Part shown: positions 17,535 through 42,148 of the stretch, piece after piece
Position numbering within the stretch: position 1 is the first letter of the stretch
How the letters are laid out: every line of letters starts with the position of its first letter
DNA from: a virus
Taxonomy: Duplodnaviria > Caudoviricetes
DNA: 64,000 bases
Strand: one strand, 5' to 3'
IMG/VR virus record: IMGVR_UViG_3300031414_000007
Coordinates: 1-64,000 of that record
The notes under the pieces: generated by a model
What the model was told of the DNA's origin: nothing
Database searches by the model: none
Seen by the model: only the letters and a program-made list of their open reading frames with translations
Program-made: the position numbers and the translations under genes

Positions 17535-18031
17535 TGGAAACAACATCATTGGACGAAAGTCCTAATAACGCAAGGCATCGCATCTTTTACAAGCAGCCGA
17601 AACGAGTACCTCCCTTCGATACAGCTTTCGTTCGTTCTTCCAACAAAGAAGGTCTGAAAGTTCTCCTATCGGCTGCTCCTGAACATTGTCAGATTATTTT
17701 GTTTACGGACGGTCCCGGCGCTGCTTACGCCATGAAACGCCTCTTTAAGCGCAACTTCAAACTCTGTTCGCAAGCTCTCCAACTTGACCTAAGAACTCTC
17801 ACGTTCACAGGTCAGGTCGTTTTTCAGTTCGTTCGTGGTGGTGCAGTCGTCGATCCACTTTCTCGCTACTTCTGTGCTGGCGAAAGCTATTTGCATGAGC
17901 TGGCTCAGACAACGAAGATTGCTCAGGTTGATACAGATACGATTGATTTATTCTGTTGCGGCCTAGGGTTTCATCGTGCGTTACTTGAGCGTGGTCGAGG
18001 CCGTTCTCTCGTATTCGCGGAGGAAGAATGA
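17534..18031 (+). CDS. hypothetical protein
   Basis: 165-aa ORF translationally coupled on both sides. Confidence 0.7.
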   Translation: METTSLDESPNNARHRIFYKQPKRVPPFDTAFVRSSNKEGLKVLLSAAPEHCQIILFTDGPGAAYAMKRLFKRNFKLCSQALQLDLRTLTFTGQVVFQFVRGGAVVDPLSRYFCAGESYLHELAQTTKIAQVDTDTIDLFCCGLGFHRALLERGRGRSLVFAEEE

Positions 18032-19056
18032 GTAGATCGTTTGCCAGTATCGGAAGGAATTCCGCGCCTGGCTCAGTGCCGAAGATGAAGATCAAGTACG
18101 GCAAGCTGCCGATGCTTCACATTGTTGATGCGTCGAACTGGATGTGCCGTGCTTACTTCGCTACGCAGAAAAGTCCTACGTATGCAAAAGATGGTACGCC
18201 TACGTATGGTCTGCGTCAGTTTATGTACATGGCGAAAGACCTGATTGACATTGCGGCTAAAGATCCTAATGGCTCCTACATAGCTTTCTGCTTTGACCCA
18301 AGCAGTAGCGAAACGTGGCGCTATCGTGCTCTCCAGCAATGGGCCTCAGAGCATAAGAAGAAATACATTCGACAGGTGTTCAAGAAGTCTAGCGACTACA
18401 AGGGTAACCGCGACCGTTCTTTGACCCAAGAGCTTGGTCCGCAGATGGCTCTTGCTCGTGAGATACTGAGCATGGCTGGCTACTACGTTGGGCTGAAACG
18501 TCCATACGAATGCGATGACCTTGTCGGTACGTTGAGCGACCGCTTTAAGCATGACTATCTTATCAAGCTGTACTCGCGCGATAAAGACTACGTGCAACTT
18601 GTTGACCACAAGAACGTGGAGCTTATCATGCAGGCGCAGTCGAATGCTCCAGAGCGTCGATTCGATCTCAAAACGGCACAGGGCTTCTTTGGTGTTCCGC
18701 CGGACCGAGTTGTTGATATGCTCGCGCTTTCTGGAGATAGCGTCGATAACGTTCCTGGGATTCCTGGACTTGGCGAGAAGACTTCTGCCGAGCTTATTCG
18801 CAAGTGGGGCGGTGCGTTAGGCATACGCGACGCGCTGCTTAGTGGTAAGCTGAAATCAAACGCAGGTTGGGCGAAAGCACTGACCATGCAGATTCCAGCA
18901 ATGGATATTGAATTGCAAATGGAGCTTGTAACTATCGACCGCAACGTTCCGACGTTACCTCGTAAACTCGAAGCGTTCGCACCAGGCAGACCTGATATAA
19001 AAGCGTTGAAAGCTACTAAGAAACGCTTGGCTCTGCCTCAACTATTACACGTCTAG
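18028..19056 (+). CDS. 5'-3' exonuclease / flap endonuclease (Pol I N-terminal, T5 D15-like)
   Basis: IVDASNWMCRAYFA, YECDDLVGTL, SRDKDYVQL, LSGDSVDNVPGIPGLGEKT (H3TH). Confidence 0.92.
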   Translation: MSRSFASIGRNSAPGSVPKMKIKYGKLPMLHIVDASNWMCRAYFATQKSPTYAKDGTPTYGLRQFMYMAKDLIDIAAKDPNGSYIAFCFDPSSSETWRYRALQQWASEHKKKYIRQVFKKSSDYKGNRDRSLTQELGPQMALAREILSMAGYYVGLKRPYECDDLVGTLSDRFKHDYLIKLYSRDKDYVQLVDHKNVELIMQAQSNAPERRFDLKTAQGFFGVPPDRVVDMLALSGDSVDNVPGIPGLGEKTSAELIRKWGGALGIRDALLSGKLKSNAGWAKALTMQIPAMDIELQMELVTIDRNVPTLPRKLEAFAPGRPDIKALKATKKRLALPQLLHV

Positions 19057-21762: not shown

Positions 21763-22533
21763 ATGAGCAACGTTGATACAACAATGCCTGAAGGTAAGTG
21801 GGAGTTCAATGAGCCGGTTGCTGCTGTGTTTGATAACATGCTGCAAAACTCAATCCCGTCTTATGATCGTATGCGTGACCTGACGTATCGTTTAGGTCGT
21901 CAGTTCGTAACTCCCGGTACTGCTATCGTTGACTTGGGTGCAAGCCTCGGTCGTGCGATTGAGCCGTTCTGCAAAGAGTTCGGTCCGTACAACTATCATC
22001 ACTGCCCGCACTCCGATGACGCAGATAGCGAAACAGGCAATCACTACAGCCTGTATGAGATCGCTCCTGCCATGCGCGAACGCCTGATGACCAACGACGT
22101 ACTGGTTGCTGCTGGTGCCAAGTTGGAACGTGACTCTCTAACTGACGTTGATACGTTCCGCTTTGATGGGCAAGTCGAATGCTCATTGATTCTGTCTGTG
22201 CTTACTCTCCAGTTTACGCCGATTGAACATCGTCAGCACATTCTGGAAAAAGTGTACGACAGCCTGGAGAAAGGCGGCGCGTTCATCCTCGTTGAGAAAG
22301 TACTCGGTGACGATAACTTCCTCGACCGTCTGCTGGTAAGCACGTACTATCAGATGAAAGGCGATAACGGTTACTCTCAGGAAAGCATTGCGACGAAACG
22401 TAAGTCACTTGAAGGCGTACTCGTTCCTGTGAAAGCCGCATGGAACGAAGAACTGCTGCGTAAAGCTGGCTTCGACCGCGTAGAGTGCTTCTACCGTGAC
22501 CTGAACTTCGCAGGTTGGATTGCAATCAAGTAA
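21763..22533 (+). CDS. cmoA: carboxy-S-adenosyl-L-methionine synthase (CmoA-like)
   Basis: WEFNEPVAAVFDNMLQNSIPSY, DLGASLG, LTLQF, GGAFILVEK, NGYSQESIATKRKSLE, KAGF..NF; collinear with CmoA motifs. Confidence 0.9.
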   Translation: MSNVDTTMPEGKWEFNEPVAAVFDNMLQNSIPSYDRMRDLTYRLGRQFVTPGTAIVDLGASLGRAIEPFCKEFGPYNYHHCPHSDDADSETGNHYSLYEIAPAMRERLMTNDVLVAAGAKLERDSLTDVDTFRFDGQVECSLILSVLTLQFTPIEHRQHILEKVYDSLEKGGAFILVEKVLGDDNFLDRLLVSTYYQMKGDNGYSQESIATKRKSLEGVLVPVKAAWNEELLRKAGFDRVECFYRDLNFAGWIAIK

Positions 22534-22578: not shown

Positions 22579-23445
22579 ATGGCTAATGTACGCCAAGAAC
22601 GCTGCGCACGAATGATACGCGAGTCACTAATCGCAGAAATAAAAAAGGCTCGCTCTAAACGTCCTTACGTCTTCCTCAGTGGTGGCGTAGATTCAAACTG
22701 TATTCTTTTTGCTGCACTGGCTGCTGGTTGCAAGCCAATCACACTGAGCTTCCACATGGAAGGCGTTAACAGTCGTGACTTCCGTGCTGCACAAGCTATC
22801 GCTCAGGAGTTTAATCTTGAGCTGATCGAAGTCGTTCTTCCTAACAGCTATGAGAAGTTGAAGAAAGATGTGCTGCTCATGGCAGAGCGTTATGCCTGCA
22901 TTCAGAAGAACGAATTTGAATGTTCATGGCCGATGCTCTACAGCTTCTTCCACGTCCGCAACCACGCGGCAGAGAATGGCATCAAGAATCCTGTGACGTT
23001 TACAGGACAGGGCGCTGACCTGATGTATCTCAGTAGCAAGAAGGCGAGCATTCACTATAAAGATCGTCCGGACGAATGGCGCAAAGAAGGACGCGCTAAT
23101 CCACATCGTACTCAGGGTCGTATCTTACCTGTGATGGCGCGTGATGCTGGTGTGCGCAACATCAAGCCGTGGGATAGCGAAGAAATCCTGCAGGCGTTTC
23201 TCGGCACAAGCTGGGAAGACGTTAACAAGCCTCGTCAGAAAGAGCCATCCCGTATGGCTTTCGAAGAAGACTTCAAACGTATTCGCGTGTACAACCATCA
23301 GAACTTCCAACTCGGTGACACAGGCATCGCAGAGCATTTTGAAAAGCTGCTGGACGACCCTGAGATGAATCCTGATCTTAAATACAAAAGCGTCGTCGGT
23401 GTTTACGGTGAGCTTGCCCGTAAGTATCAGGGAATCGAATCATGA
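22579..23445 (+). CDS. asparagine-synthetase-like ATP-dependent amide ligase (synthetase domain only)
   Basis: PP-loop FLSGGVDS, DFRAAQAIA, FTGQGADL; no N-terminal Ntn glutaminase domain. Confidence 0.8.
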   Translation: MANVRQERCARMIRESLIAEIKKARSKRPYVFLSGGVDSNCILFAALAAGCKPITLSFHMEGVNSRDFRAAQAIAQEFNLELIEVVLPNSYEKLKKDVLLMAERYACIQKNEFECSWPMLYSFFHVRNHAAENGIKNPVTFTGQGADLMYLSSKKASIHYKDRPDEWRKEGRANPHRTQGRILPVMARDAGVRNIKPWDSEEILQAFLGTSWEDVNKPRQKEPSRMAFEEDFKRIRVYNHQNFQLGDTGIAEHFEKLLDDPEMNPDLKYKSVVGVYGELARKYQGIES

Positions 23446-24053
23446 TTCATATCATTGATGGTGGTGTTGGTTGTGATTACGTTTCTGAAAAGCTGCGTGA
23501 CGCTGGAATCAACTGTCGTACTCATGCGCCAAACAACCCACGCATTCGCGCTGCATACGCACCTTATGCCTCGCTGTCCATGGGCTTTAGCGTAGAAGAA
23601 ATTGAGAAGCATATCGGTAACGTGCTTGGCACATATCGTGGCCTATTTCTGATTAGCAGTTACATAGGCTCGCTGGTGGCACGTAGCATGATTGACCAAT
23701 GCGGCCAAAGCCATAACATCATTTACTGCGATGACTTCAAGTGCGGTTCTCTGCCTGTCGTTGCTTCTTCTATTTCTGTAAACACCTATAAGAAGCAACG
23801 GCAACTCGGACGTATTGCTGGACGCCTCAAACACTTTGACCTTGACCACGAATTTATTATTGCAGATAAGGCAGTGCGATTTGCGGCAGGCTCAGAGTTT
23901 GATGAACACGAAGCGCGTAGCGAACTGAACAACCATGCGAAGTTCCTGTCGAGTCCGTCCATGATTGTTGCAGCACACAAACTCGGTGTGCGTAGCAGCA
24001 TGTATCATAACTATGCAGGGCTGGTGAAAGAGTTCATTGAGAATCGCCAGTAG
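23442..24053 (+). CDS. Asp/Glu racemase-fold-like protein, catalytic Cys motifs not evident
   Basis: N-terminus IHIIDGGVGCDYVSEKL..APYASLS..EEI resembles MurI IGxFDSGVGG..APYGxKSxEEI. Confidence 0.45.
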   Translation: MIHIIDGGVGCDYVSEKLRDAGINCRTHAPNNPRIRAAYAPYASLSMGFSVEEIEKHIGNVLGTYRGLFLISSYIGSLVARSMIDQCGQSHNIIYCDDFKCGSLPVVASSISVNTYKKQRQLGRIAGRLKHFDLDHEFIIADKAVRFAAGSEFDEHEARSELNNHAKFLSSPSMIVAAHKLGVRSSMYHNYAGLVKEFIENRQ

Positions 24054-24342: not shown

Positions 24343-24798
24343 ATGAATCTTTTCTCTATTTTAAAACAGCAAGTGAAGAAAGCGCTGTCTACCGAAGCGA
24401 ACCACGAACCAGAAATTCGCGCTTTGTTTGACTGGCGTTACTCAGTTGAAATCAAAGGTCAGATGTATATCGTCGGCAAGACAGGAGCAAACACCTGCTT
24501 CTATATCGAGCCGGGAACGTCTGAGCCTATCGCCTGCTATCCCGATGCGTTGCTGGAGAAGATCGACCAGTGGGGTTCAGGCAAGTATGTGTCGTATGCG
24601 ATCTACTTCAAACGCTTCGAAAGCCCTGTTGCTGAGAACATCAAAAGTCTCGAAAAGGCAATGACAGGCAAACCGAAGACCTTTAAGAAAGGTTACTTCA
24701 TCTGTGGCGTTACGCCGAAAGGCAAGCGCGTCAAGCTCTATCGTCTGCAACAGGGATTGAGCGGAATGCAGTGGGTAGCAGTGGAACCTAAAAAGTAA
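24343..24798 (+). CDS. hypothetical protein
   Basis: SD GAGGA; 151 aa. Confidence 0.8.
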   Translation: MNLFSILKQQVKKALSTEANHEPEIRALFDWRYSVEIKGQMYIVGKTGANTCFYIEPGTSEPIACYPDALLEKIDQWGSGKYVSYAIYFKRFESPVAENIKSLEKAMTGKPKTFKKGYFICGVTPKGKRVKLYRLQQGLSGMQWVAVEPKK

Positions 24799-26364: not shown

Positions 26365-26769
26365 ATGAGACCTGAGACTATTGCTCGTACATATAAAGTC
26401 CCAAGCCAAACTTTGGAGTCCGTTCATAACATCTGTGAACGGCAGGGCGTGAAGCTGTCTGACGTTGTTCGTCGATATATTCAATTCGTCGTTCGCACTC
26501 GCGGCGAGTCTTTGCGTTCAGCGCCTCGTCCTGAGTCGGCTCAGCTTAACGTGCGTATGCCTTTTGACTTGGCGCATTCGTTTAGTCATGTGTGCAAACA
26601 ATCTGGTTCAGGCACCAGCACTACTATGACCAGTTTCCTGAAGGAGATCGTTCAACTCAATCGTATTCCTGATGAACTGTTGCAGGAGACCGAAGAAGAT
26701 GTGCGTGAGTATATCCGCAAAGAACGTGCTCGCCTTGATTTACTGGAAGCTCAATTCGGAAAACAATAA
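26365..26769 (+). CDS. tandem ribbon-helix-helix DNA-binding protein
   Basis: two RHH-like units: RTYKVP..LSDVVRRYI and QLNVRMP..TMTSFLKEIV. Confidence 0.55.
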   Translation: MRPETIARTYKVPSQTLESVHNICERQGVKLSDVVRRYIQFVVRTRGESLRSAPRPESAQLNVRMPFDLAHSFSHVCKQSGSGTSTTMTSFLKEIVQLNRIPDELLQETEEDVREYIRKERARLDLLEAQFGKQ

Positions 26770-27611
26770 TGACAGTAATAAGTCCAATCCGCTATCAGGG
26801 CAATAAGCGAAGTCTTATCCCTCTCATTCTGGAGCACACACCTTCTGTGCAAGATTGTCCACGTATGGTCGATGTGTTTGGAGGCAGCGCTACTGTGTGC
26901 GCTAACATGCCTCAGAAATTTCGTGTCTACAACGAACTGAGTCCGCAGGTATTTGAAATCGTCAAGATGCTTGTCGAACAAGACCCGAAGAAAACATTGG
27001 GTCAAGTCAAGCGTCTGGTAAAACATTGGTGCCTGACAAACAGCAACGAAGAAAACTACGATGCGTTCCGTGAAGTTGTCCAGAAGAAGCGCACGGCTAT
27101 TCTGCATTACGTGGCGCACCGACATGCACACTCGAACATGCTGCGCTTTAATCAGCAGGGTATCTACAACGTGGGCTTTGGTGATCGCGGTCTGATTGGA
27201 AAGTTCGACGAACTGGAAGACGAACTCACTACGTTCCACAGTCACATGCAGGGTGTCCACCTGACGAACATGAAGTATGGTAAGTTGTTGAGCCGTCTTG
27301 GTAGTCAACTGAACTGCAACACGTTCTGCTATTTCGACCCGCCGTATCTTGCCTCAGGTGCTATGCAGTATGGAAAGTGGACAGAAGCGAACGAGCGCAA
27401 CCTGCTGGCAACGCTTGAGCAATTGAATCGTTTAGGCGTGCCGTGGATGTTGAGCAACGTTACTGAACATCGACACTTCTCAAACGACTTGTTGAAGCGT
27501 TGGCTAAAGAAACATGCAACGACTGTGCTCTATCCAAACAAAAGCTATGCGATGAACAACGGCCAGAGCGGCTCGCACGGTACCGTTGAAATTCTGGCAA
27601 TGAACTACTGA
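26769..27611 (+). CDS. Dam-family (D12 class) N6-adenine DNA methyltransferase
   Basis: SPIRYQGNK, DVFGGSATV, YFDPPY, WMLSN. Confidence 0.88.
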   Translation: MTVISPIRYQGNKRSLIPLILEHTPSVQDCPRMVDVFGGSATVCANMPQKFRVYNELSPQVFEIVKMLVEQDPKKTLGQVKRLVKHWCLTNSNEENYDAFREVVQKKRTAILHYVAHRHAHSNMLRFNQQGIYNVGFGDRGLIGKFDELEDELTTFHSHMQGVHLTNMKYGKLLSRLGSQLNCNTFCYFDPPYLASGAMQYGKWTEANERNLLATLEQLNRLGVPWMLSNVTEHRHFSNDLLKRWLKKHATTVLYPNKSYAMNNGQSGSHGTVEILAMNY

Positions 27612-34682: not shown

Positions 34683-35020
34683 CACCAGCAATCCGCTTTA
34701 ACGAGCAGACCTGTGAACTGCTGAAAAAGATCTTCGGCAACAACAAGCCCTTCTTTGTTGTGCGCCGCGACACAATCATCGAAAACGATAAGCAGTTCGG
34801 TGAGCGTGTGTATCTGGCCAATGGCACGCATGTCATTACCGTGCCTAACGTACAGGGCCTCGATCTCGGAGATAAGCTCTATCTCGCAGAAGACAATGAG
34901 GTGTACGAGTGGCATCCTCATTTCGACCGCCCCAAATACGAAGCAAGCAACAATCAAAAGGAAGCTCTCGCTTTTGGTCTTCATCCTATCGTCCATCATA
35001 AAGACAGCCGGAACTCTTAA
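34679..35020 (+). CDS. hypothetical protein
   Basis: coupled overlaps on both sides. Confidence 0.7.
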   Translation: MTPAIRFNEQTCELLKKIFGNNKPFFVVRRDTIIENDKQFGERVYLANGTHVITVPNVQGLDLGDKLYLAEDNEVYEWHPHFDRPKYEASNNQKEALAFGLHPIVHHKDSRNS

Positions 35021-36123
35021 TGAACAATCAACCTCTCGATCTGCGCGATCCCAATCAGTACGAACTGTATTCTCTGCATTGCGTGGATGAACAGTACATC
35101 AATCTCGGCAATGCAATTCTGATGCACGGTACTGACGAAACAGATCCCGGTCGTACCGAAGACACGTGGCGCACTCTGATCGGTATTGGCTTTCAATTGA
35201 CCAACACGCTGATCGCTTTCCCTGCGTTGCTATCTGCGCGTAAGAACTGGTTCGCAGCCGTTGATGAAATGTGCTGGATGGCTCGCGGTGAAACAAATAT
35301 CGGCAGTCTCAATTCCAAAATCTGGAACGAGTGGGCGGACGAAGATGGCGAGTGCGGTCCTATCTACGGTCTGATGTGGCGCATGTGGCCTGATATCAAA
35401 ACCTTCCCGACTATTGAGTCGATGAAGGAGCGTCAGATTAGCGATGCTGAAATCGAGCGTATCTCCAAAGAGATCAATCGCATGAAGGCCGCTGGTTACA
35501 CTGAAACGGAAATGGCTGACGGCCGTGTGTGCTACGAAGGTACAATCGATCAGTTTGCTGATGCTCTGCGTCAGGTAATGAATCGCAGTCGCTCACGTCG
35601 CATCCGTGTTCAGGCATACAATCCAGCGTATCTCAACATGCAGGGTCTGCCGCCGTGCCACACTGAGTTTGAGTTCAATGTGACTAAGCCTACGCTGTAT
35701 GAAACGGCTCAGATGGAAGCACGTCAGATGGCGCCTGCCGAAGACTCGCTGCACATCACGGTGACCATGCGTTCCAACGACACGCTTCTGGGCAGACCGT
35801 TCAACATCATCGGCTACAGCGCCATGCACCAAATGATCGCGAAGTGGGCAGGCATGAACGTCGGCAGCTTTACGCTGAATACTACCAACACGCATCTGTA
35901 CACTCACCACTTCGAAGCGTTCAAAAAGCAAAGTGAGCAGTGGGCAGTTCTCGCAGACAACATGAAACGCACTGGCGAACCTGTTGTCTATCCTATGCTG
36001 GAAATCAGCGACGACATTCTTGGCCTGACGCCGGAAGAGTTGCTTGATAACGCCAATGCTGAATGGTTCCAGCTTCTCGATTATGCACCAGCACAGGCAG
36101 TCAAAGGACGGGTCACCAAGTGA
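35020..36123 (+). CDS. thyA: thymidylate synthase
   Basis: IWNEWADEDG..GPIYG, SRRI, LPPCH (catalytic Cys), RSND..LG.PFN (dUMP-type Asn). Confidence 0.93.
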   Translation: MNNQPLDLRDPNQYELYSLHCVDEQYINLGNAILMHGTDETDPGRTEDTWRTLIGIGFQLTNTLIAFPALLSARKNWFAAVDEMCWMARGETNIGSLNSKIWNEWADEDGECGPIYGLMWRMWPDIKTFPTIESMKERQISDAEIERISKEINRMKAAGYTETEMADGRVCYEGTIDQFADALRQVMNRSRSRRIRVQAYNPAYLNMQGLPPCHTEFEFNVTKPTLYETAQMEARQMAPAEDSLHITVTMRSNDTLLGRPFNIIGYSAMHQMIAKWAGMNVGSFTLNTTNTHLYTHHFEAFKKQSEQWAVLADNMKRTGEPVVYPMLEISDDILGLTPEELLDNANAEWFQLLDYAPAQAVKGRVTK

Positions 36124-37755: not shown

Positions 37756-38091
37756 ATGAACTACGATCCAAAGAAAGATTTCCACCCGTTTCAATATCTG
37801 GGCGCACCTAAAGTCCCGCACACAGGCTTCTTAGGCAATACAGTGAACTTGGTTGAGAACGACGTAAACATCGGCAGCGATGAATGCACGTTCGAGTTCA
37901 CTGTAGCTCAGATGAACGCGATGGACAGAGGTACTGTTACGTTCAGGGCGAAAGACTCTGGCGGTGGTATCGACATTAAGAAATGCTCAGTCTCAGGTTT
38001 GAAAATGGTAATTAAGCTGGACAGAAGGGTGATCGAGTTCGGCAAAGTTCAAGTCGAATGGCAGACCACTCCTCGCCACTACTATTACTGA
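37756..38091 (+). CDS. hypothetical beta-rich protein
   Basis: ATG after AGGAG. Confidence 0.75.
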   Translation: MNYDPKKDFHPFQYLGAPKVPHTGFLGNTVNLVENDVNIGSDECTFEFTVAQMNAMDRGTVTFRAKDSGGGIDIKKCSVSGLKMVIKLDRRVIEFGKVQVEWQTTPRHYYY

Positions 38092-38100
38092 ATCTGTAAA
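38091..38100 (+). promoter_or_regulatory. AATCTGTAAA motif (class A)
   Basis: 44 nt upstream of the ParB-N/MTase operon. Confidence 0.55.
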
Positions 38101-38134
38101 GACAGAGAAAGAGCAACCGATAAGAGATACGACA

Positions 38135-38845
38135 ATGGCAAAAACTGCTATCAAAACAAAGGACGGAAAGAAGAAAAAGAATGATGGGCTAAAGTTTGAG
38201 TTGAATAAACTCAGCTCCGTCAATCAATTAAAAGGCGCAGCGTATAACCCGCGTTTCATTTCAGACAGTCGCCTGAAAGCACTCGAAGGTTCTTTGGGTA
38301 GCTTCGGCGACTTGTCTGGTATCGTGTTCAACAACAACATCAAATCTGGTGTGTTGATCTCAGGCCACCAGCGCTTGAAGTCAATCGAAGGCTGGAAGAC
38401 TCGTATCGAGGTCCAGAAGTCTGTTGATAAGCACGGCACTATCGGCCTGGGTTATATTCACGCAACGCATCCGAAGAAGTCTGATAAGGTGATCAGCATT
38501 CCTCTGCGTATCGTGAACTGGACCGATAAGAAAGCAGAGTACGCTGCAAACATCGCGGCGAACGCCCACGGCGGTGAGTTCGATAACAAGAAACTCGCCA
38601 AGCTGGTTGAGCAACTCGACCTCAACACAATCAAGCCGCAGTTGCTTGGCCTTGACCCGTTAGAGATTCGCGGTCTGCAAGCCAAGCTGAAAGTTCAGGC
38701 TGTTGTTCAGGACGAGAAACGTGCGGGCAAGACAACTGGCCAGATGAACGGCAGTACCGGTAAGTTCAATGAGTACAACCCTGATGATGTGGGTGAAGCT
38801 CTGAACTGCACCTGCCCGCGTTGTGGATTCAAGTTCGAGGGATAA
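38135..38845 (+). CDS. ParB/Srx-like N-terminal domain protein with C-terminal Zn ribbon
   Basis: AAYNPRFIS..SLGSFG..IVFN..LISGHQRLK; CTCPRCGFKF. Confidence 0.8.
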   Translation: MAKTAIKTKDGKKKKNDGLKFELNKLSSVNQLKGAAYNPRFISDSRLKALEGSLGSFGDLSGIVFNNNIKSGVLISGHQRLKSIEGWKTRIEVQKSVDKHGTIGLGYIHATHPKKSDKVISIPLRIVNWTDKKAEYAANIAANAHGGEFDNKKLAKLVEQLDLNTIKPQLLGLDPLEIRGLQAKLKVQAVVQDEKRAGKTTGQMNGSTGKFNEYNPDDVGEALNCTCPRCGFKFEG

Positions 38846-38846
38846 T

Positions 38847-40976
38847 ATGATCATCAAGCCGCCTACGATGAAGGAAATCAACAAGCTGGATAAACCCTGG
38901 CGTGGTATGAGTTTCTTCGCAGGTTGCGGTGGGTCTTCGACCGGTCACAAGATGGCCGGTATCGACATTGTGTTGAGCAACGAGTTTGTTGACTCAGCAC
39001 GAGAGTCCTACGAAGCGAACCATCCGACAACTAAAGTGCTGCCTCATGACATTCGCCGCTTAGACCCAGGCAAGCTGTTGCGCTTCGCTGGTCTAAACAA
39101 AGGCGAACTGGATTTACTTGACGGTAGTCCTCCTTGCTTTACCGAAGACACGATCATTCATACAGCAGACGGCATGAAGTTCATTTCGGACATGAACGTC
39201 GGCGATAGAGCAATGACCAGTGTCGGGCAGTATCATCCCGTGTACGACACGATGGTGCGACCTTACGTCGGCACGATGCACAAAATCGAAACACTGATCA
39301 GTAGCAACAAAGCAACGCCTGAGCACCCGTTCTTTATCAGACGTCCACTTGCTGCGGGCGGTTACTCTGAACCATTCTGGTGTGATGCTAAAGACGTGCA
39401 GGAAGGCGATCTGCTCGGTACACCTCGTGTTACGCCTGACCAGACTGCTGATGTGTACCACAATCAGATGAATCAATTGCCGAAGATGATTCGTCAGTGG
39501 GTAAGCATTCCTGAGTTCTGGTGGATGGTAGGTCACTGGTGTGATCGTGGTTCAATCGAAACTATCGGTGGCATTGAAGCAGTTAGCTTCGAATCGCATA
39601 CCAGTATTGAAAACGCGATGATTGAGCAGGCGTTTGACGCGCTTAAACTCAGTAGCCTGAATCGCATCGAAACAATGACAGCGCAACGTAAAACGTTCCG
39701 TACTGTGATTGATGTTGAGCTGGTGCAGTTTCTGCGTCGCTTTATCAGTCACGGCAACAACACGTTCTCTCGTCGTCTGCCTGCCATGTTGTTCCACATC
39801 AACGCGGAACTGAAACAGCAATTCATTCTGGGCTGTGCTGGCATGGATTATGTGACTGCTATGGGCACAGGCATTGCTATCACTTCTGCAAGCAAGCGCT
39901 TCCTGCTTGAACTGAATTACCTGTGCTGCTCTGCATTCAATCGTCCTCTGTTCGACGGACTGACTTGGGGCGACCTGTATTTCGGTAGTTCGTTAACGCC
40001 CCGCGAACGAAACAGTGCGCGTGAGCACATTGGCTACCTGTTCCTGCAGGACGAGCACAACTTCTTCCACGAGTTTAGCAAAGAAGACCCGCATCTCTGG
40101 ACAGAAGTGATTGAGAACCTCGCGTATCAAGCAACCTGTGACGTCTATAACTTCTCTGTTGAAGTGGACGAAACGTATGTGGCGAACGGTGTTGTTGTTC
40201 ACAACTGCAAAGGCTTCTCTACTGCTGGCGTGAAAGAAGAAGGCTGGGGCAAAGAAGTTAAGTACAGCGATAACAAGTATCAGCAGGTTGATGACCTGTT
40301 CGATCAGTACTGCCGTATGCTGAAAGGCATGATGCCGAAAGTGTTCACTGCGGAAAACGTTAGTGGTCTTGTTAAGGGTGCCTCGAAAGGCTACTTCCTT
40401 GAGATCATGCGAACGTTTGACGAGATTGGTTATTACGTTCGAGCGCCGCTGCTTAATGCTGCGTGGCTTGGTGTGCCTCAGTCCCGTGAACGTATCATCT
40501 TTATGGGTGTACGCAAAGACGTAGCACACGCTCTCGGTTATAAGAGCAATCAGGCTGCTGTGCCTGACGTAGTGCCCTGCGATACGATGGCCTTCCTTGC
40601 AGACGCACTGCCTCACATTCAGCGATATAAGTCCACGAAGAAGGATATCATCACGTATCTTCCTGCGATGAACGGACCGATGCCGACAATCACTGCGGCT
40701 GATGCTATCGCGTATGAGACAGCCCGTTTCTCGTCTGCTGGGTTCGTTGAAGACAACAAAGGTCATCGTCGTAAGTTGACCATCGACGAACTAAAAGTTG
40801 TTTCTGGCCTGCCGTCAGACTATAAGCTGAAAGGTAAGTTTGAAGAACAGTGGGAGCGACTCGGTCGTATCTGTGTTCCGGCAATGACACAGGCTGCGTC
40901 GAAAGCTCTTATCGAACACGTCCTGCTGCCTTATGCTAAGAAGCGTAAGAAGAAGCCTGGCGAAATCTTTAAGTAA
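38847..40976 (+). CDS. DNA cytosine-C5 methyltransferase-family enzyme, intein-containing; predicted carboxymethyltransferase
   Basis: motif I FFAGCGG, IV GSPP|C, VI ENV, VIII QSRER; motif X reads LGRICVP instead of GN(S/A)V. Confidence 0.88.
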   Translation: MIIKPPTMKEINKLDKPWRGMSFFAGCGGSSTGHKMAGIDIVLSNEFVDSARESYEANHPTTKVLPHDIRRLDPGKLLRFAGLNKGELDLLDGSPPCFTEDTIIHTADGMKFISDMNVGDRAMTSVGQYHPVYDTMVRPYVGTMHKIETLISSNKATPEHPFFIRRPLAAGGYSEPFWCDAKDVQEGDLLGTPRVTPDQTADVYHNQMNQLPKMIRQWVSIPEFWWMVGHWCDRGSIETIGGIEAVSFESHTSIENAMIEQAFDALKLSSLNRIETMTAQRKTFRTVIDVELVQFLRRFISHGNNTFSRRLPAMLFHINAELKQQFILGCAGMDYVTAMGTGIAITSASKRFLLELNYLCCSAFNRPLFDGLTWGDLYFGSSLTPRERNSAREHIGYLFLQDEHNFFHEFSKEDPHLWTEVIENLAYQATCDVYNFSVEVDETYVANGVVVHNCKGFSTAGVKEEGWGKEVKYSDNKYQQVDDLFDQYCRMLKGMMPKVFTAENVSGLVKGASKGYFLEIMRTFDEIGYYVRAPLLNAAWLGVPQSRERIIFMGVRKDVAHALGYKSNQAAVPDVVPCDTMAFLADALPHIQRYKSTKKDIITYLPAMNGPMPTITAADAIAYETARFSSAGFVEDNKGHRRKLTIDELKVVSGLPSDYKLKGKFEEQWERLGRICVPAMTQAASKALIEHVLLPYAKKRKKKPGEIFK
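39135..40205 (+). mobile_element. intein (357 aa) with degenerate LAGLIDADG-type region
   Basis: begins CFTEDT, has ATPEHPF block B and ends VYNFSVEVDETYVANGVVVHN followed by Cys. Confidence 0.93.
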
Positions 40977-40984
40977 GGGCGTCT

Positions 40985-41089
40985 ATGTTCTACGTAGTAT
41001 TGGGTTTTGGTATCGTGATTGGGATCATCCTCACGCTATTCTGTCTGTGGTTTTTCTTCCTGAAGGACTTCGCGGTATTCAAGTCGTGA
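40985..41089 (+). CDS. 34-aa single-TM peptide (not in ORF track)
   Basis: MFYVVLGFGIVIGIILTLFCLWFFFLKDFAVFKS fills the intergenic gap. Confidence 0.6.
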   Translation: MFYVVLGFGIVIGIILTLFCLWFFFLKDFAVFKS

Positions 41090-41122
41090 TCAATTAGGAC
41101 AAGGACGTCCGGGAGAATTGAA

Positions 41123-41689
41123 ATGTCTTATTGTTTAGTTCGTGCAATGATGGTTGCTCATGTACAGGATGGACAACTTGTTTGTTCTAAATACAAGATC
41201 AAACTCAGTGCGAGTAACTCCACGCAACTGCATAACTTCATGCACCGCATCTTCTTTGAGTACAACGGCCGTATTCTGCTAGAAGATGAACAGGACCGCG
41301 ACGTGCTGCCTACACTTAACTACCGCAAGCAAGCCAAAGTGCTTGAAGGTAATGGCAGCGTGTTCAGTCGCATCACCCAACTCGGCCAAAAGCACGGCAT
41401 CACCTGTCATCTGGTGAACACGTTCAAGTCGAACCTTGACGAAATTGCTTACGTGTTCTATCTGGTGCAGCCTACTGGCGTTGCATGTCAGGTACTCGAT
41501 ACTGACAAAGAAGAACTCTGGGGCAAGACGCTGCTAGTGGGCGCTGACTCTGACGTTGACTATGTAGGGCGCAACGTTGTGCCAATCTTCTGCGATGAAA
41601 ACTACAACGTTGACGACGCAGTGCTGGGCAACAACCTGTTCACCCTGCACGACGATACCACCAAACTGATGGTGATGGTCGGCAAGTAA
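41123..41689 (+). CDS. hypothetical protein
   Basis: SD GGGAG; 188 aa. Confidence 0.75.
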   Translation: MSYCLVRAMMVAHVQDGQLVCSKYKIKLSASNSTQLHNFMHRIFFEYNGRILLEDEQDRDVLPTLNYRKQAKVLEGNGSVFSRITQLGQKHGITCHLVNTFKSNLDEIAYVFYLVQPTGVACQVLDTDKEELWGKTLLVGADSDVDYVGRNVVPIFCDENYNVDDAVLGNNLFTLHDDTTKLMVMVGK

Positions 41690-41690
41690 A

Positions 41691-41873
41691 ATGATACGCT
41701 ACCCGATAATATTCCTCGCTACATGGATTCTGGTAGCGTACTCATTATCGACACTGGATGTTTCATCTGAGTGGTGTGAAAGAATAGGCATGGTATCTGC
41801 CGCTATCATCACTCACATCGAAATCAAATGGCAGCGCTTCATCAAGAAGCATTGTCAATATCCCGCCGAGTAA
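41691..41873 (+). CDS. small membrane protein
   Basis: two hydrophobic segments. Confidence 0.55.
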   Translation: MIRYPIIFLATWILVAYSLSTLDVSSEWCERIGMVSAAIITHIEIKWQRFIKKHCQYPAE

Positions 41874-41932
41874 TCGGCATATCGGTGTGCGGCACAGACG
41901 TGACTGCACCCTCTACCTAAAAGGTATGTACT

Positions 41933-42148
41933 ATGTCCAAGAAACACACTTCGTATACCAGCGCGTTCGCAATCGGTGAAATGGCTGTTCTGTCTCTCGA
42001 TAACTTTGCAGACTGCGAACTGCCTTACGGTGTAGTTGAAGGCGTTCTGTTCTACGGGCCTCAAGTGCGCTATCGCTTGTCGCTGTTTGTGAATGATGGT
42101 CCTGCTTCTTCACCTAAAGCATATCGCCATTCAACATTCCTGTTATGA
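41933..42148 (+). CDS. hypothetical protein (SH3-like beta pattern)
   Basis: SD AAGGT; may be one gene with the next ORF. Confidence 0.6.
   Translation: MSKKHTSYTSAFAIGEMAVLSLDNFADCELPYGVVEGVLFYGPQVRYRLSLFVNDGPASSPKAYRHSTFLL

What the first reader, a model, noticed from the sequence alone, without database searches (positions are those of the whole stretch)
38847..40976. C5-MTase with motif X Asn->Arg: sequence signature of a natural DNA carboxymethyltransferase
Seen: motif X reads EQWERLGRICVP (Arg codon 40866-40868), where canonical C5-MTases have QxxxQxGN(S/A)V. Motifs I, IV, VI and VIII are canonical. Known: replacing this SAM-pocket Asn with a basic residue (engineered M.MpeI N374K, recalled) switches cofactor use to Cx-SAM. 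Inference: this enzyme is the writer that uses the product of the cmoA gene 16 kb upstream. The pathway is split over two loci, so neighbourhood-based mining would miss it.
Basis: partly seen in the sequence, partly recalled or inferred. Interest (0 to 1): 0.88.

Follow-up and report, generated by a model that had tools for sequence, protein, structure and literature searches.

The report
Intein-split phage DNA carboxymethyltransferase (CmoX)
This jumbo-phage gene encodes a cytosine-C5 DNA transferase, interrupted by a self-splicing intein, that carries the arginine shown in 2025 to make such enzymes use carboxy-SAM, so it is a further member of the published CmoA/CmoX/CmoY system and not a new discovery.

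Summary
ORF 38847-40976 is a C5-cytosine methyltransferase fold with canonical motifs I, IV, VI and VIII. Codon 40866-40868 is an Arg where M.HhaI has Asn304.

In that work the phage enzyme CmoX writes 5-carboxymethylcytosine with Cx-SAM made by a phage CmoA, and the Asn-synthetase-like ligase CmoY then amidates it.

- The best solved-structure match is SpCmoX (8YF3, E 2.9e-55), and Arg674 aligns with its Cx-SAM-binding Arg350.
- A CmoA homologue (21763-22533) and a CmoY homologue (22579-23445) lie 16 kb upstream.
- A ParB-like gene sits one base upstream of the transferase.
- The genome record has no other C5-methyltransferase and no CmoB.

Three features are particular to this copy:
- A 357-aa intein sits directly before the catalytic Cys and is conserved through the whole Erwinia/Dickeya/Yersinia jumbo-phage clade.
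- CmoA and CmoX are 16 kb apart. In 66 other Arg-type viral loci they lie within 2.6 kb.
- The ligase is divergent, so its amine is unknown.

This scan has already met CmoA/CmoX cassettes in at least 10 other genomes, and this intein site in other phages. Verdict: new member of a known kind.

The parts
38847..40976 (+). CmoX precursor ORF (709 aa, P0001): a C5-cytosine transferase interrupted by an intein
   Evidence: PF00145 E 6e-38. phrog_36001 matches full length. Best PDB hit is 8YF3 SpCmoX, E 2.9e-55.
38847..39134 (+). N-extein (aa 1-96): motif I FAGCGG, the cofactor-binding residues F24/E46/F47/D68, and motif IV up to GSPP
   Evidence: Gap-free alignment to SpCmoX residues 22-99. F25, E47, F48 and D69 of SpCmoX are all matched.
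39135..40205 (+). Class-1 intein, 357 aa. It has Cys1, block B TPEH, block F/G ...VVVHN, and +1 Cys454, which is the catalytic Cys of motif IV. The middle LAGLIDADG-like region looks decayed.
   Evidence: Intein_splicing, Hint_2 and TIGR01443 hits. The splice blocks are invariant in 7 orthologues, while the middle region is only 28-56% identical.
40206..40973 (+). C-extein (aa 454-709): CKGFS, ENV, QSRER, a short target-recognition region, and motifs IX/X
40866..40868 (+). Arg674 codon (CGT). It is equivalent to SpCmoX Arg350, M.HhaI Asn304 and M.MpeI Asn374.
   Evidence: The structural role of Arg350 comes from PMC12783734.
38135..38845 (+). ParB-like protein (236 aa, GHQRLKS motif, C-terminal CxxC..C). 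Its stop lies one base before the CmoX start.
   Evidence: phrog_620 E 3e-32. 44% identical to the PaBG ParB-like nuclease. It is always directly upstream in relatives. Pfam PF02195 itself did not hit.
21763..22533 (+). CmoA homologue (carboxy-SAM synthase), 256 aa, with small insertions
   Evidence: TIGR00740 at 139 bits, which is the best family but below the 193-bit equivalog cut-off. PDB hits are E. coli CmoA 4GEK/4IWN, E 1e-29. The KR aligned with E. coli Arg199 is kept. 42% identical to PaBG CmoA and 30% to SpCmoA.
22579..23445 (+). CmoY-like ATP-dependent amide ligase: Asn-synthetase synthetase domain only, with PP-loop SGGVDS and no glutaminase domain
   Evidence: PF00733/PF06508. 34% identical to SpCmoY and 44% to the PaBG 'asparagine synthase'.
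24343..24798 (+). Conserved 151-aa protein of unknown function that travels with the module. Its orthologue sits between CmoA and the ligase in PaBG.
   Evidence: 34% identical, E 4e-23, to PaBG hyp_6762. 87-93% identical within the clade. No family or fold match.
23442..24053 (+). 203-aa ORF whose start overlaps the ligase stop. Membership in the pathway is uncertain.
   Evidence: Found only in this phage clade. There is only an alpha/beta-hydrolase lead from language-model features. The fold prediction failed.

Best explanation
The gene encodes the precursor of a CmoX-type DNA cytosine C5-carboxymethyltransferase.

**Proposed mechanism.**
1. The 357-aa intein must first excise itself. Its +1 residue, Cys454, is the catalytic nucleophile, and splicing creates motif IV (GSPPCKGFS). 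The result is a 352-aa enzyme.
2. The enzyme then works like any C5-methyltransferase. Cys attacks cytosine C6, with help from the ENV Glu and the QxRxR Arg.
3. Arg317 of the spliced protein (Arg674 of the precursor) replaces the cofactor-pocket Asn. It binds the carboxylate of carboxy-SAM, so a carboxymethyl group is transferred instead of a methyl group, giving 5-carboxymethylcytosine in phage DNA.
4. The cofactor is made from SAM and prephenate by the phage CmoA, encoded 16 kb upstream. Host CmoA may contribute.
5. The adjacent glutaminase-less Asn-synthetase-like ligase (CmoY-like) then probably adenylates the carboxyl group and couples an amine to it. The amine cannot be named from sequence.
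6. The likely benefit is protection of phage DNA from host nucleases.

**Shown here:** homology, residue correspondence, gene content, and conservation.

**Inferred:** splicing, cofactor use, the product, the target sequence, and the amide step.
For: **Closest structure and residue match.**
- The best solved-structure hit by far is SpCmoX 8YF3 (E 2.9e-55). M.HaeIII scores 2.8e-16 and M.HhaI about 1e-9.
- Arg674 aligns with SpCmoX Arg350. Arg350 contacts the Cx-SAM carboxymethyl group in the crystal structure, wild-type SpCmoX accepts only Cx-SAM, and the R350N mutant is inactive (PMC12783734).
- A profile alignment places the same column on HhaI Asn304.
- The SpCmoX cofactor ligands F25, E47, F48 and D69 are all conserved.

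**Gene content.**
- CmoA and CmoY homologues are in the same genome.
- The record contains only one C5-methyltransferase and no CmoB.

**Linkage in other phages.**
- The same five proteins (ParB, transferase, CmoA, the 150-aa protein, ligase) form one contiguous cassette in phage PaBG.
- S-B43 and TurkishDelight have equivalent cassettes.
- In the 80 best viral-contig relatives, all 66 Arg-type loci outside the jumbo clade have a CmoA-like ORF within 2.6 kb (median: overlapping). The 3 Asn-type loci have none, although those contigs are short fragments.

**Phylogeny.** The protein sits deep inside an Arg-type clade.

**Intein and extein conservation.**
- All intein splicing residues are invariant across 7 orthologues.
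- Across those orthologues the exteins stay 76-96% identical to the window's, while the inteins diverge to 36-86%.
Against: - There is no biochemical or mass-spectrometric data for this phage or any close relative. I found no paper reporting modified DNA in the Erwinia, Dickeya or PaBG jumbo phages.
- Only one CmoX has ever been characterised, and identity to it is modest: 55% in the N-extein and about 30% in the C-extein by tblastn.
- In SpCmoX the Arg is necessary but has not been shown to be sufficient.
- The CmoA homologue scores below NCBIfam's equivalog cut-off (139 vs 193 bits).
- Splicing competence is inferred from motifs only.
- Other scan notes report CmoA-linked transferases that lack the Arg. 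The signature is therefore not the only route to Cx-SAM use, and its predictive value is not fully established.
Confidence: 0.85

Rival explanations
1. It is an ordinary SAM-dependent 5-methylcytosine methyltransferase with an odd motif X. The phage CmoA serves tRNA cmo5U modification or merely depletes SAM.
For: - The fold and all catalytic motifs are those of a canonical C5-methyltransferase.
- The two genes are 16 kb apart, so linkage in this genome is weak on its own.
- RefSeq annotates the CmoA orthologues as 'tRNA methyltransferase'.
Against: - The Asn that canonical enzymes need is replaced.
- The characterised Arg-type enzyme does not accept SAM.
- There is no CmoB in the record to use Cx-SAM on tRNA.
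- The Arg-type transferase and CmoA are adjacent in 66 of 66 other viral loci and in PaBG, S-B43 and TurkishDelight.
Confidence: 0.05
2. The gene is a dead relic. The intein no longer splices, so no active transferase is made. CmoA and the ligase act on something else or are also relics.
For: - The homing-endonuclease part of the intein has no family hit, and its LAGLIDADG-like motifs lack conserved acidic residues.
- A 357-aa insert in motif IV would abolish activity if it were not removed.
Against: - Cys1, TxxH, the terminal HN and the +1 Cys are invariant in 7 orthologues.
- The exteins of those orthologues stay 76-96% identical to the window's, with every catalytic motif intact, while their inteins drift to 36% identity. 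This pattern is expected if splicing and enzyme function are both under selection.
- The frame is open over 709 codons in all 50 phage records that cover at least 80% of the protein.
Confidence: 0.04
3. The enzyme uses Cx-SAM, but 5cxmC is the final product. Alternatively, the ligase-like protein acts on another substrate, so there is no amide hypermodification here.
For: - The ligase is only 34% identical to SpCmoY.
- Many Arg-type loci in the sample have no ligase nearby: only 14 of 80 have one.
Against: - The ligase gene directly follows CmoA here.
- It lies in the same cassette as CmoA and the transferase in PaBG, S-B43 and TurkishDelight.
Confidence: 0.15

Closest known systems
SpCmoX of Synechococcus phage S-B43 (PDB 8YF3; Yang et al., Nat Commun 2025, PMC12783734), with SpCmoA and SpCmoY
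   Same: - C5-methyltransferase fold with the SPPC catalytic motif.
- Arg at the Asn304(HhaI) position, and the same adenine and ribose ligands.
- CmoA and an Asn-synthetase-like ligase are encoded by the same phage.
- A ParB-like neighbour, as noted for many CmoX contigs.
   Different: - This copy carries a 357-aa intein before the catalytic Cys.
- It lies 16 kb from CmoA instead of in one operon.
- Its target-recognition region is shorter and unrelated, so the GC specificity of SpCmoX cannot be assumed.
- The ligase is divergent (34% identical), so glycine cannot be assumed.
- The host is an enterobacterial plant pathogen, not a cyanobacterium.
ParB / cytosine methylase / CmoA / 150-aa protein / asparagine synthase cassette of Pseudomonas jumbo phage PaBG (KF147891, genes 176-180)
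   Same: All five proteins have orthologues in the window, 34-48% identical by tblastn. Both are the same broad jumbo-phage lineage.
   Different: - PaBG has them contiguous, and its transferase has no intein.
- A database protein whose extein is 97.6% identical to PaBG's does carry an intein at the same site.
- The PaBG cassette is uncharacterised experimentally.
Engineered M.MpeI N374K (carboxymethyltransferase made from a CpG methyltransferase)
   Same: A basic residue replaces the same cofactor-pocket Asn and enables Cx-SAM use. This is cited in PMC12783734.
   Different: - It has Lys where this protein has Arg.
- It is man-made, whereas this protein is natural.
- It has CpG specificity.
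- It is only a distant sequence relative: 4DKJ scores E 8e-5.
Canonical SAM-dependent C5-cytosine methyltransferases (M.HhaI, M.HaeIII)
   Same: The fold, motifs I, IV, VI and VIII, and the covalent Cys-C6 mechanism.
   Different: Motif X has GN(S/A)V in these enzymes and GRICV here.
Inteins at the motif IV Pro|Cys junction of C5-cytosine methyltransferases
   Same: - The insertion site is identical: SPP|C...HN|C.
- It is seen in dozens of database proteins, both Arg-type and Asn-type.
- Earlier notes of this scan record it too.
   Different: - The inteins are only about 25-30% identical to this one outside its own clade.
- Here the host protein is a CmoX-type enzyme. The CmoX paper does not mention inteins.

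Membership tests
CmoX (DNA cytosine C5-carboxymethyltransferase, Yang et al. 2025) | C5-cytosine methyltransferase fold | tested here: met
   PF00145 E 6e-38 and TIGR00675 at 119 bits. 8YF3 is the best PDB hit.
CmoX (DNA cytosine C5-carboxymethyltransferase, Yang et al. 2025) | 'SPPC' catalytic motif (S95-P96-P97-C98 of SpCmoX) | tested here: met
   GSPP followed by Cys. The Cys is the intein's Cys1 in the precursor and Cys454 after splicing.
CmoX (DNA cytosine C5-carboxymethyltransferase, Yang et al. 2025) | Arg equivalent to SpCmoX Arg350, the ligand of the Cx-SAM carboxylate | tested here: met
   Arg674 aligns with Arg350 and with HhaI Asn304.
CmoX (DNA cytosine C5-carboxymethyltransferase, Yang et al. 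2025) | Active-site Glu (ENV) and Arg (QxRxR) that contact the cytosine | tested here: met
   TAENVSG and PQSRERIIF are conserved.
CmoX (DNA cytosine C5-carboxymethyltransferase, Yang et al. 2025) | A Cx-SAM synthase (CmoA) available in the same phage | tested here: met
   The CmoA homologue lies at 21763-22533.
CmoX (DNA cytosine C5-carboxymethyltransferase, Yang et al. 2025) | Transfers carboxymethyl from Cx-SAM to DNA cytosine C5, so that 5cxmC is present in the DNA | not testable with these tools
   This needs an enzyme assay or LC-MS. The public runs that hold this DNA are kept as assembled contigs only.
Canonical SAM-dependent C5-MTase (Dcm/M.HhaI type) | Motif X Asn (HhaI Asn304) in the cofactor pocket | tested here: not met
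   The position is occupied by Arg.
CmoA (carboxy-SAM synthase, TIGR00740) | Scores over the equivalog cut-off, and keeps the Arg199 (E. coli) that binds the Cx-SAM carboxylate | tested here: inconclusive
   The score is 139 bits against a 193-bit cut-off, with small insertions. TIGR00740 is the best family, and E. coli CmoA is the best PDB hit, with the Arg199 column conserved. The role of Arg199 is recalled from the CmoA structure literature.
CmoY (5cxmC amide ligase, Asn-synthetase-like) | Asn-synthetase synthetase domain with a PP-loop, homologous to SpCmoY, encoded with CmoA and CmoX | tested here: met
   PF00733 hit and SGGVDS motif. 34% identical to SpCmoY over the full length.
CmoY (5cxmC amide ligase, Asn-synthetase-like) | Glycine-binding pocket residues of the SpCmoY cluster | not testable with these tools
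   The residues are given only in figure images of the paper's supplement.
Class 1 intein | Cys1, block B TxxH, terminal His-Asn, and a +1 Cys/Ser/Thr | tested here: met
   CFTEDT..., TPEH, VVVHN|C. TIGR01443 and PF14890 hits.
Class 1 intein | Active LAGLIDADG homing endonuclease domain | tested here: inconclusive
   There is no Pfam hit in the middle 200 aa. The two LAGLIDADG-like motifs lack acidic residues conserved across orthologues.

The most novel reading that the evidence does not exclude
The Erwinia/Dickeya/Yersinia jumbo-phage clade carries a new hypermodified cytosine: an amide of 5-carboxymethylcytosine with an amine other than glycine.
- It would be made by the divergent, glutaminase-less ligase.
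- The conserved 151-aa protein, and possibly the 203-aa protein, may help. Neither has a known fold.
- The timing of the modification would be gated by splicing of the intein that sits on the transferase's catalytic cysteine.
Probability: 0.3. Interest if true: 0.55.

Novelty: new member of a known kind. Interest (0 to 1): 0.3.

Why it matters
**Extends the published system to new, testable phages.** This finding extends the CmoA/CmoX/CmoY DNA-hypermodification system to a large clade of cultured jumbo phages. Their hosts are plant pathogens: Erwinia amylovora, Dickeya solani and Yersinia. I found no report of DNA modification in these phages, and they are being developed for biocontrol. Modified DNA would affect restriction mapping, sequencing chemistry and host range. 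The prediction is cheap to test because close relatives are in culture.

**Two details the CmoX paper does not mention.**
- Many CmoX-type enzymes carry an intein on the catalytic cysteine.
- The genes need not be neighbours.

**Limits.** Conceptually nothing new is added to the published mechanism.

Tried and rejected
**Accessory proteins.**
- AlphaFold2 models used clade alignments. The 203-aa ORF gave mean pLDDT 45 and is unusable. The 151-aa ORF gave mean pLDDT 62.
- Fold searches with the 151-aa model gave only TM below 0.45 in the ESM Atlas and Z at most 6.7 against PDB representatives. That is within the noise range the tool describes, so I assigned no fold.
- The other first-reader note calls the 203-aa ORF 'racemase-fold'. 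I could neither support nor exclude this. Language-model features point weakly to alpha/beta hydrolases (score 0.90-0.94, a lead only).
- BLASTP found no similarity between the 203-aa ORF and the 203-aa ORF that follows the ligase in PaBG.

**ParB-like protein.** Pfam gave no hit even at E up to 5. The assignment rests on PHROG 620 and on similarity to PaBG.

**The ligase's amine.** I tried to name it from the paper's glycine-pocket residues, but these appear only in figure images.

**Direct evidence of modification.**
- All 22 public runs listed are stored as contigs, mostly phyllosphere, plant and soil metagenomes. No read-level signal could be examined, so I did not use read laying.
- Literature searches for restriction resistance or modified DNA in AD1, Y3, PaBG and relatives found nothing relevant.

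**Not attempted.**
- I did not run a complex prediction for ParB with CmoX, because I do not claim that they bind.
- I did not fold the spliced transferase.
Full report
**What is in the sequence.**
The ORF at 38847-40976 (+) is open for 709 codons. Its ATG lies one base after the stop of the preceding gene, behind a GAGGG box. Pfam assigns two C5-cytosine methyltransferase segments, separated by Hint/intein matches.

The insert is a 357-aa intein at aa 97-453, nt 39135-40205. It begins with Cys directly after GSPP and ends VVHN, followed by CKGFS. Removing it gives a 352-aa protein with motif I FAGCGG, motif IV GSPPCKGFS, motif VI ENV, motif VIII QSRER, and motif X EQWERLGRICVP.

**Where the Arg sits.**
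- A search of all PDB sequences puts one entry far ahead: 8YF3, at E 2.9e-55. M.HaeIII scores 2.8e-16 and M.HhaI about 1e-9.
- 8YF3 is SpCmoX, the DNA cytosine C5-carboxymethyltransferase of Synechococcus phage S-B43 crystallised with carboxy-SAM (PMC12783734).
- In the printed alignment the window's LGR lines up with VGR of SpCmoX, and counting residues gives Arg350.
- According to the paper, Arg350 replaces HhaI Asn304 and contacts the carboxymethyl group. Wild-type SpCmoX accepts only Cx-SAM, and R350N is dead.
- A profile of the family aligned to M.HhaI places the same column on the Asn of FGN, and on the GN of HaeIII.
- The SpCmoX residues that hold the adenine and ribose (F25, E47, F48, D69) are matched one for one in a gap-free stretch.

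As far as a sequence alignment to a liganded crystal structure can tell, that test comes out in favour of the claim.

**The rest of the pathway in this window.**
- *CmoA.* The gene at 21763-22533 is a CmoA homologue. TIGR00740 is its best family, at 139 bits, below the 193-bit equivalog cut-off. E. coli CmoA structures are its best PDB hits at E 1e-29, and the KR aligned with E. coli Arg199 is kept.
- *CmoY-like ligase.* The next gene, 22579-23445, is an asparagine-synthetase synthetase domain with the PP-loop SGGVDS and no glutaminase domain. It is 34% identical to the characterised glycine ligase SpCmoY.
- *ParB-like protein.* The gene directly upstream of the transferase, 38135-38845, is ParB-like by PHROG and by 44% identity to the PaBG ParB-like protein. 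The paper reports the same association for 1,660 contigs.
- *Genome-wide check.* The 210-kb record, estimated 79% complete, contains no second C5-methyltransferase and no CmoB. The transferase is therefore the only recognisable consumer of Cx-SAM.

**Comparative evidence for linkage.**
The window belongs to a jumbo-phage genome 97% identical in this gene to Erwinia phage pEa_SNUABM_30. It is related to Dickeya phage AD1, Alexandra, Y3, Yoloswag and Yersinia phage fHe-Yen9-02.

- In all of these, CmoA lies near genome position 12-13 kb and the transferase near 26-35 kb, so the separation is old.
- In the more distant jumbo phage PaBG the same proteins are contiguous: ParB, transferase (335 aa, no intein), CmoA, a 150-aa protein, then the ligase. 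Each has an orthologue in the window, including the 151-aa ORF at 24343-24798.
- S-B43 has CmoA-CmoY-CmoX. Streptomyces phage TurkishDelight has ParB-ParB-transferase-amidotransferase/ligase-CmoA.

I then took the 80 best relatives of the C-extein in IMG/VR.
- 77 are Arg-type.
- All 66 Arg-type loci outside the jumbo clade have a CmoA-like ORF within 2.6 kb, typically overlapping the transferase stop.
- The 3 Asn-type loci have none, also when the whole contig is searched, although those contigs are short fragments.
- The 11 jumbo-clade loci are the only Arg-type ones without CmoA within 10 kb.

On a tree of 104 family members the window's protein sits deep inside Arg-type sequences. The five Asn-type sequences form one small nested group.

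**The intein.**
- The same insertion is present in every member of the clade that I aligned, at 349-359 aa. Cys1, TPEH, the DETY(V/I)A...VVHN tail and the +1 Cys are all invariant.
- The exteins of those orthologues are 76-96% identical to the window's. The inteins are 36-86% identical, and their middle regions 28-56%.
- No endonuclease family matches the middle region, and its LAGLIDADG-like motifs lack conserved acids. The endonuclease is probably decayed while splicing is maintained.
- The SPP|C site is occupied by inteins in dozens of other database transferases, both Arg-type and Asn-type.
- One protein with an extein 97.6% identical to PaBG's intein-less enzyme carries a 375-aa intein there. 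Gain or loss at this site is therefore recent in at least one lineage.
- Earlier notes of this scan reached the same view of the site.

**What it most likely does.**
After splicing, the enzyme transfers the carboxymethyl group of Cx-SAM to C5 of cytosines in phage DNA. CmoA supplies the cofactor, and the ligase then amidates the new carboxyl group. I put this at 0.85.

The target sequence is unknown, because the region between motifs VIII and IX is shorter than in SpCmoX and unrelated to it. The amine is also unknown. The ligase is divergent, and the paper's pocket residues are available only as images.

**What failed.**
Folds of the two accessory ORFs gave no assignable structure. Public runs are contigs only. 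I found no literature on modified DNA in these phages.

**Novelty.**
The mechanism and the signature were published in December 2025, and the authors mined 5,615 candidates with the SPPC + Arg350 rule. This scan has already followed up CmoA-linked transferases in at least ten other genomes, including PaBG. What is specific here is the combination of the intein on the catalytic cysteine, the 16-kb separation from CmoA, a divergent ligase with two unexplained companions, and a cultured phage clade in which it can be tested. It is a new member of a known kind.

Noticed in passing
window 26769-27611 (+): A D12-class N6-adenine DNA methyltransferase (Dam-like; PF02086, E 1e-24) lies between the two halves of the cytosine pathway. 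The phage probably also methylates adenine.
   Followed up: no
window 35020-36123 (+): A thymidylate-synthase homologue of 367 aa, about 100 aa longer than ThyA. It has two insertions (about aa 125-175 and 227-245), the PPCH catalytic Cys, and the dUMP-type Asn in PFNI. Whether it is a plain ThyA or a dUMP hydroxymethylase was not resolved.
   Followed up: partly
window 18028-19056 (+): A 5'-3' exonuclease (FEN/Pol I N-terminal type; PF02739 + PF01367).
   Followed up: no
window 24343-24798 (+); L004:6762-7214 (PaBG): A 151-aa basic protein with no family or fold match. It is more conserved in the clade (87-93%) than CmoA (about 85%). In PaBG its orthologue sits between CmoA and the ligase, so it may be an unrecognised component of the pathway.
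   Followed up: partly
P0041 vs L004:4894-5901 (PaBG): A database protein whose extein is 97.6% identical to PaBG's intein-less transferase carries a 375-aa intein at the same SPP|C site. This is presence/absence polymorphism between near-identical hosts.
   Followed up: partly
P0060, P0061: Asn-type (GNSVP) relatives also carry inteins at the SPP|C junction, so the intein site is not specific to the carboxymethyl-type enzymes.
   Followed up: no
L008:3725-4777 (Parabacteroides phage PD491P1): A related transferase has Met (VGMSVPP) at the Arg/Asn position, a third state of the cofactor-pocket residue. I did not check it for CmoA linkage.
   Followed up: no
P0086, P0116, P0120: Arg-type QQWERLGRAVP transferases occur on megabase bacterial contigs (Phycisphaerae, Brucella), presumably in prophages. 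I did not check whether CmoA accompanies them.
   Followed up: no
window 38000-42000: Near-identical DNA is held by phyllosphere, plant and soil metagenome assemblies from several studies. This is consistent with a phage of plant-associated Enterobacterales.
   Followed up: no
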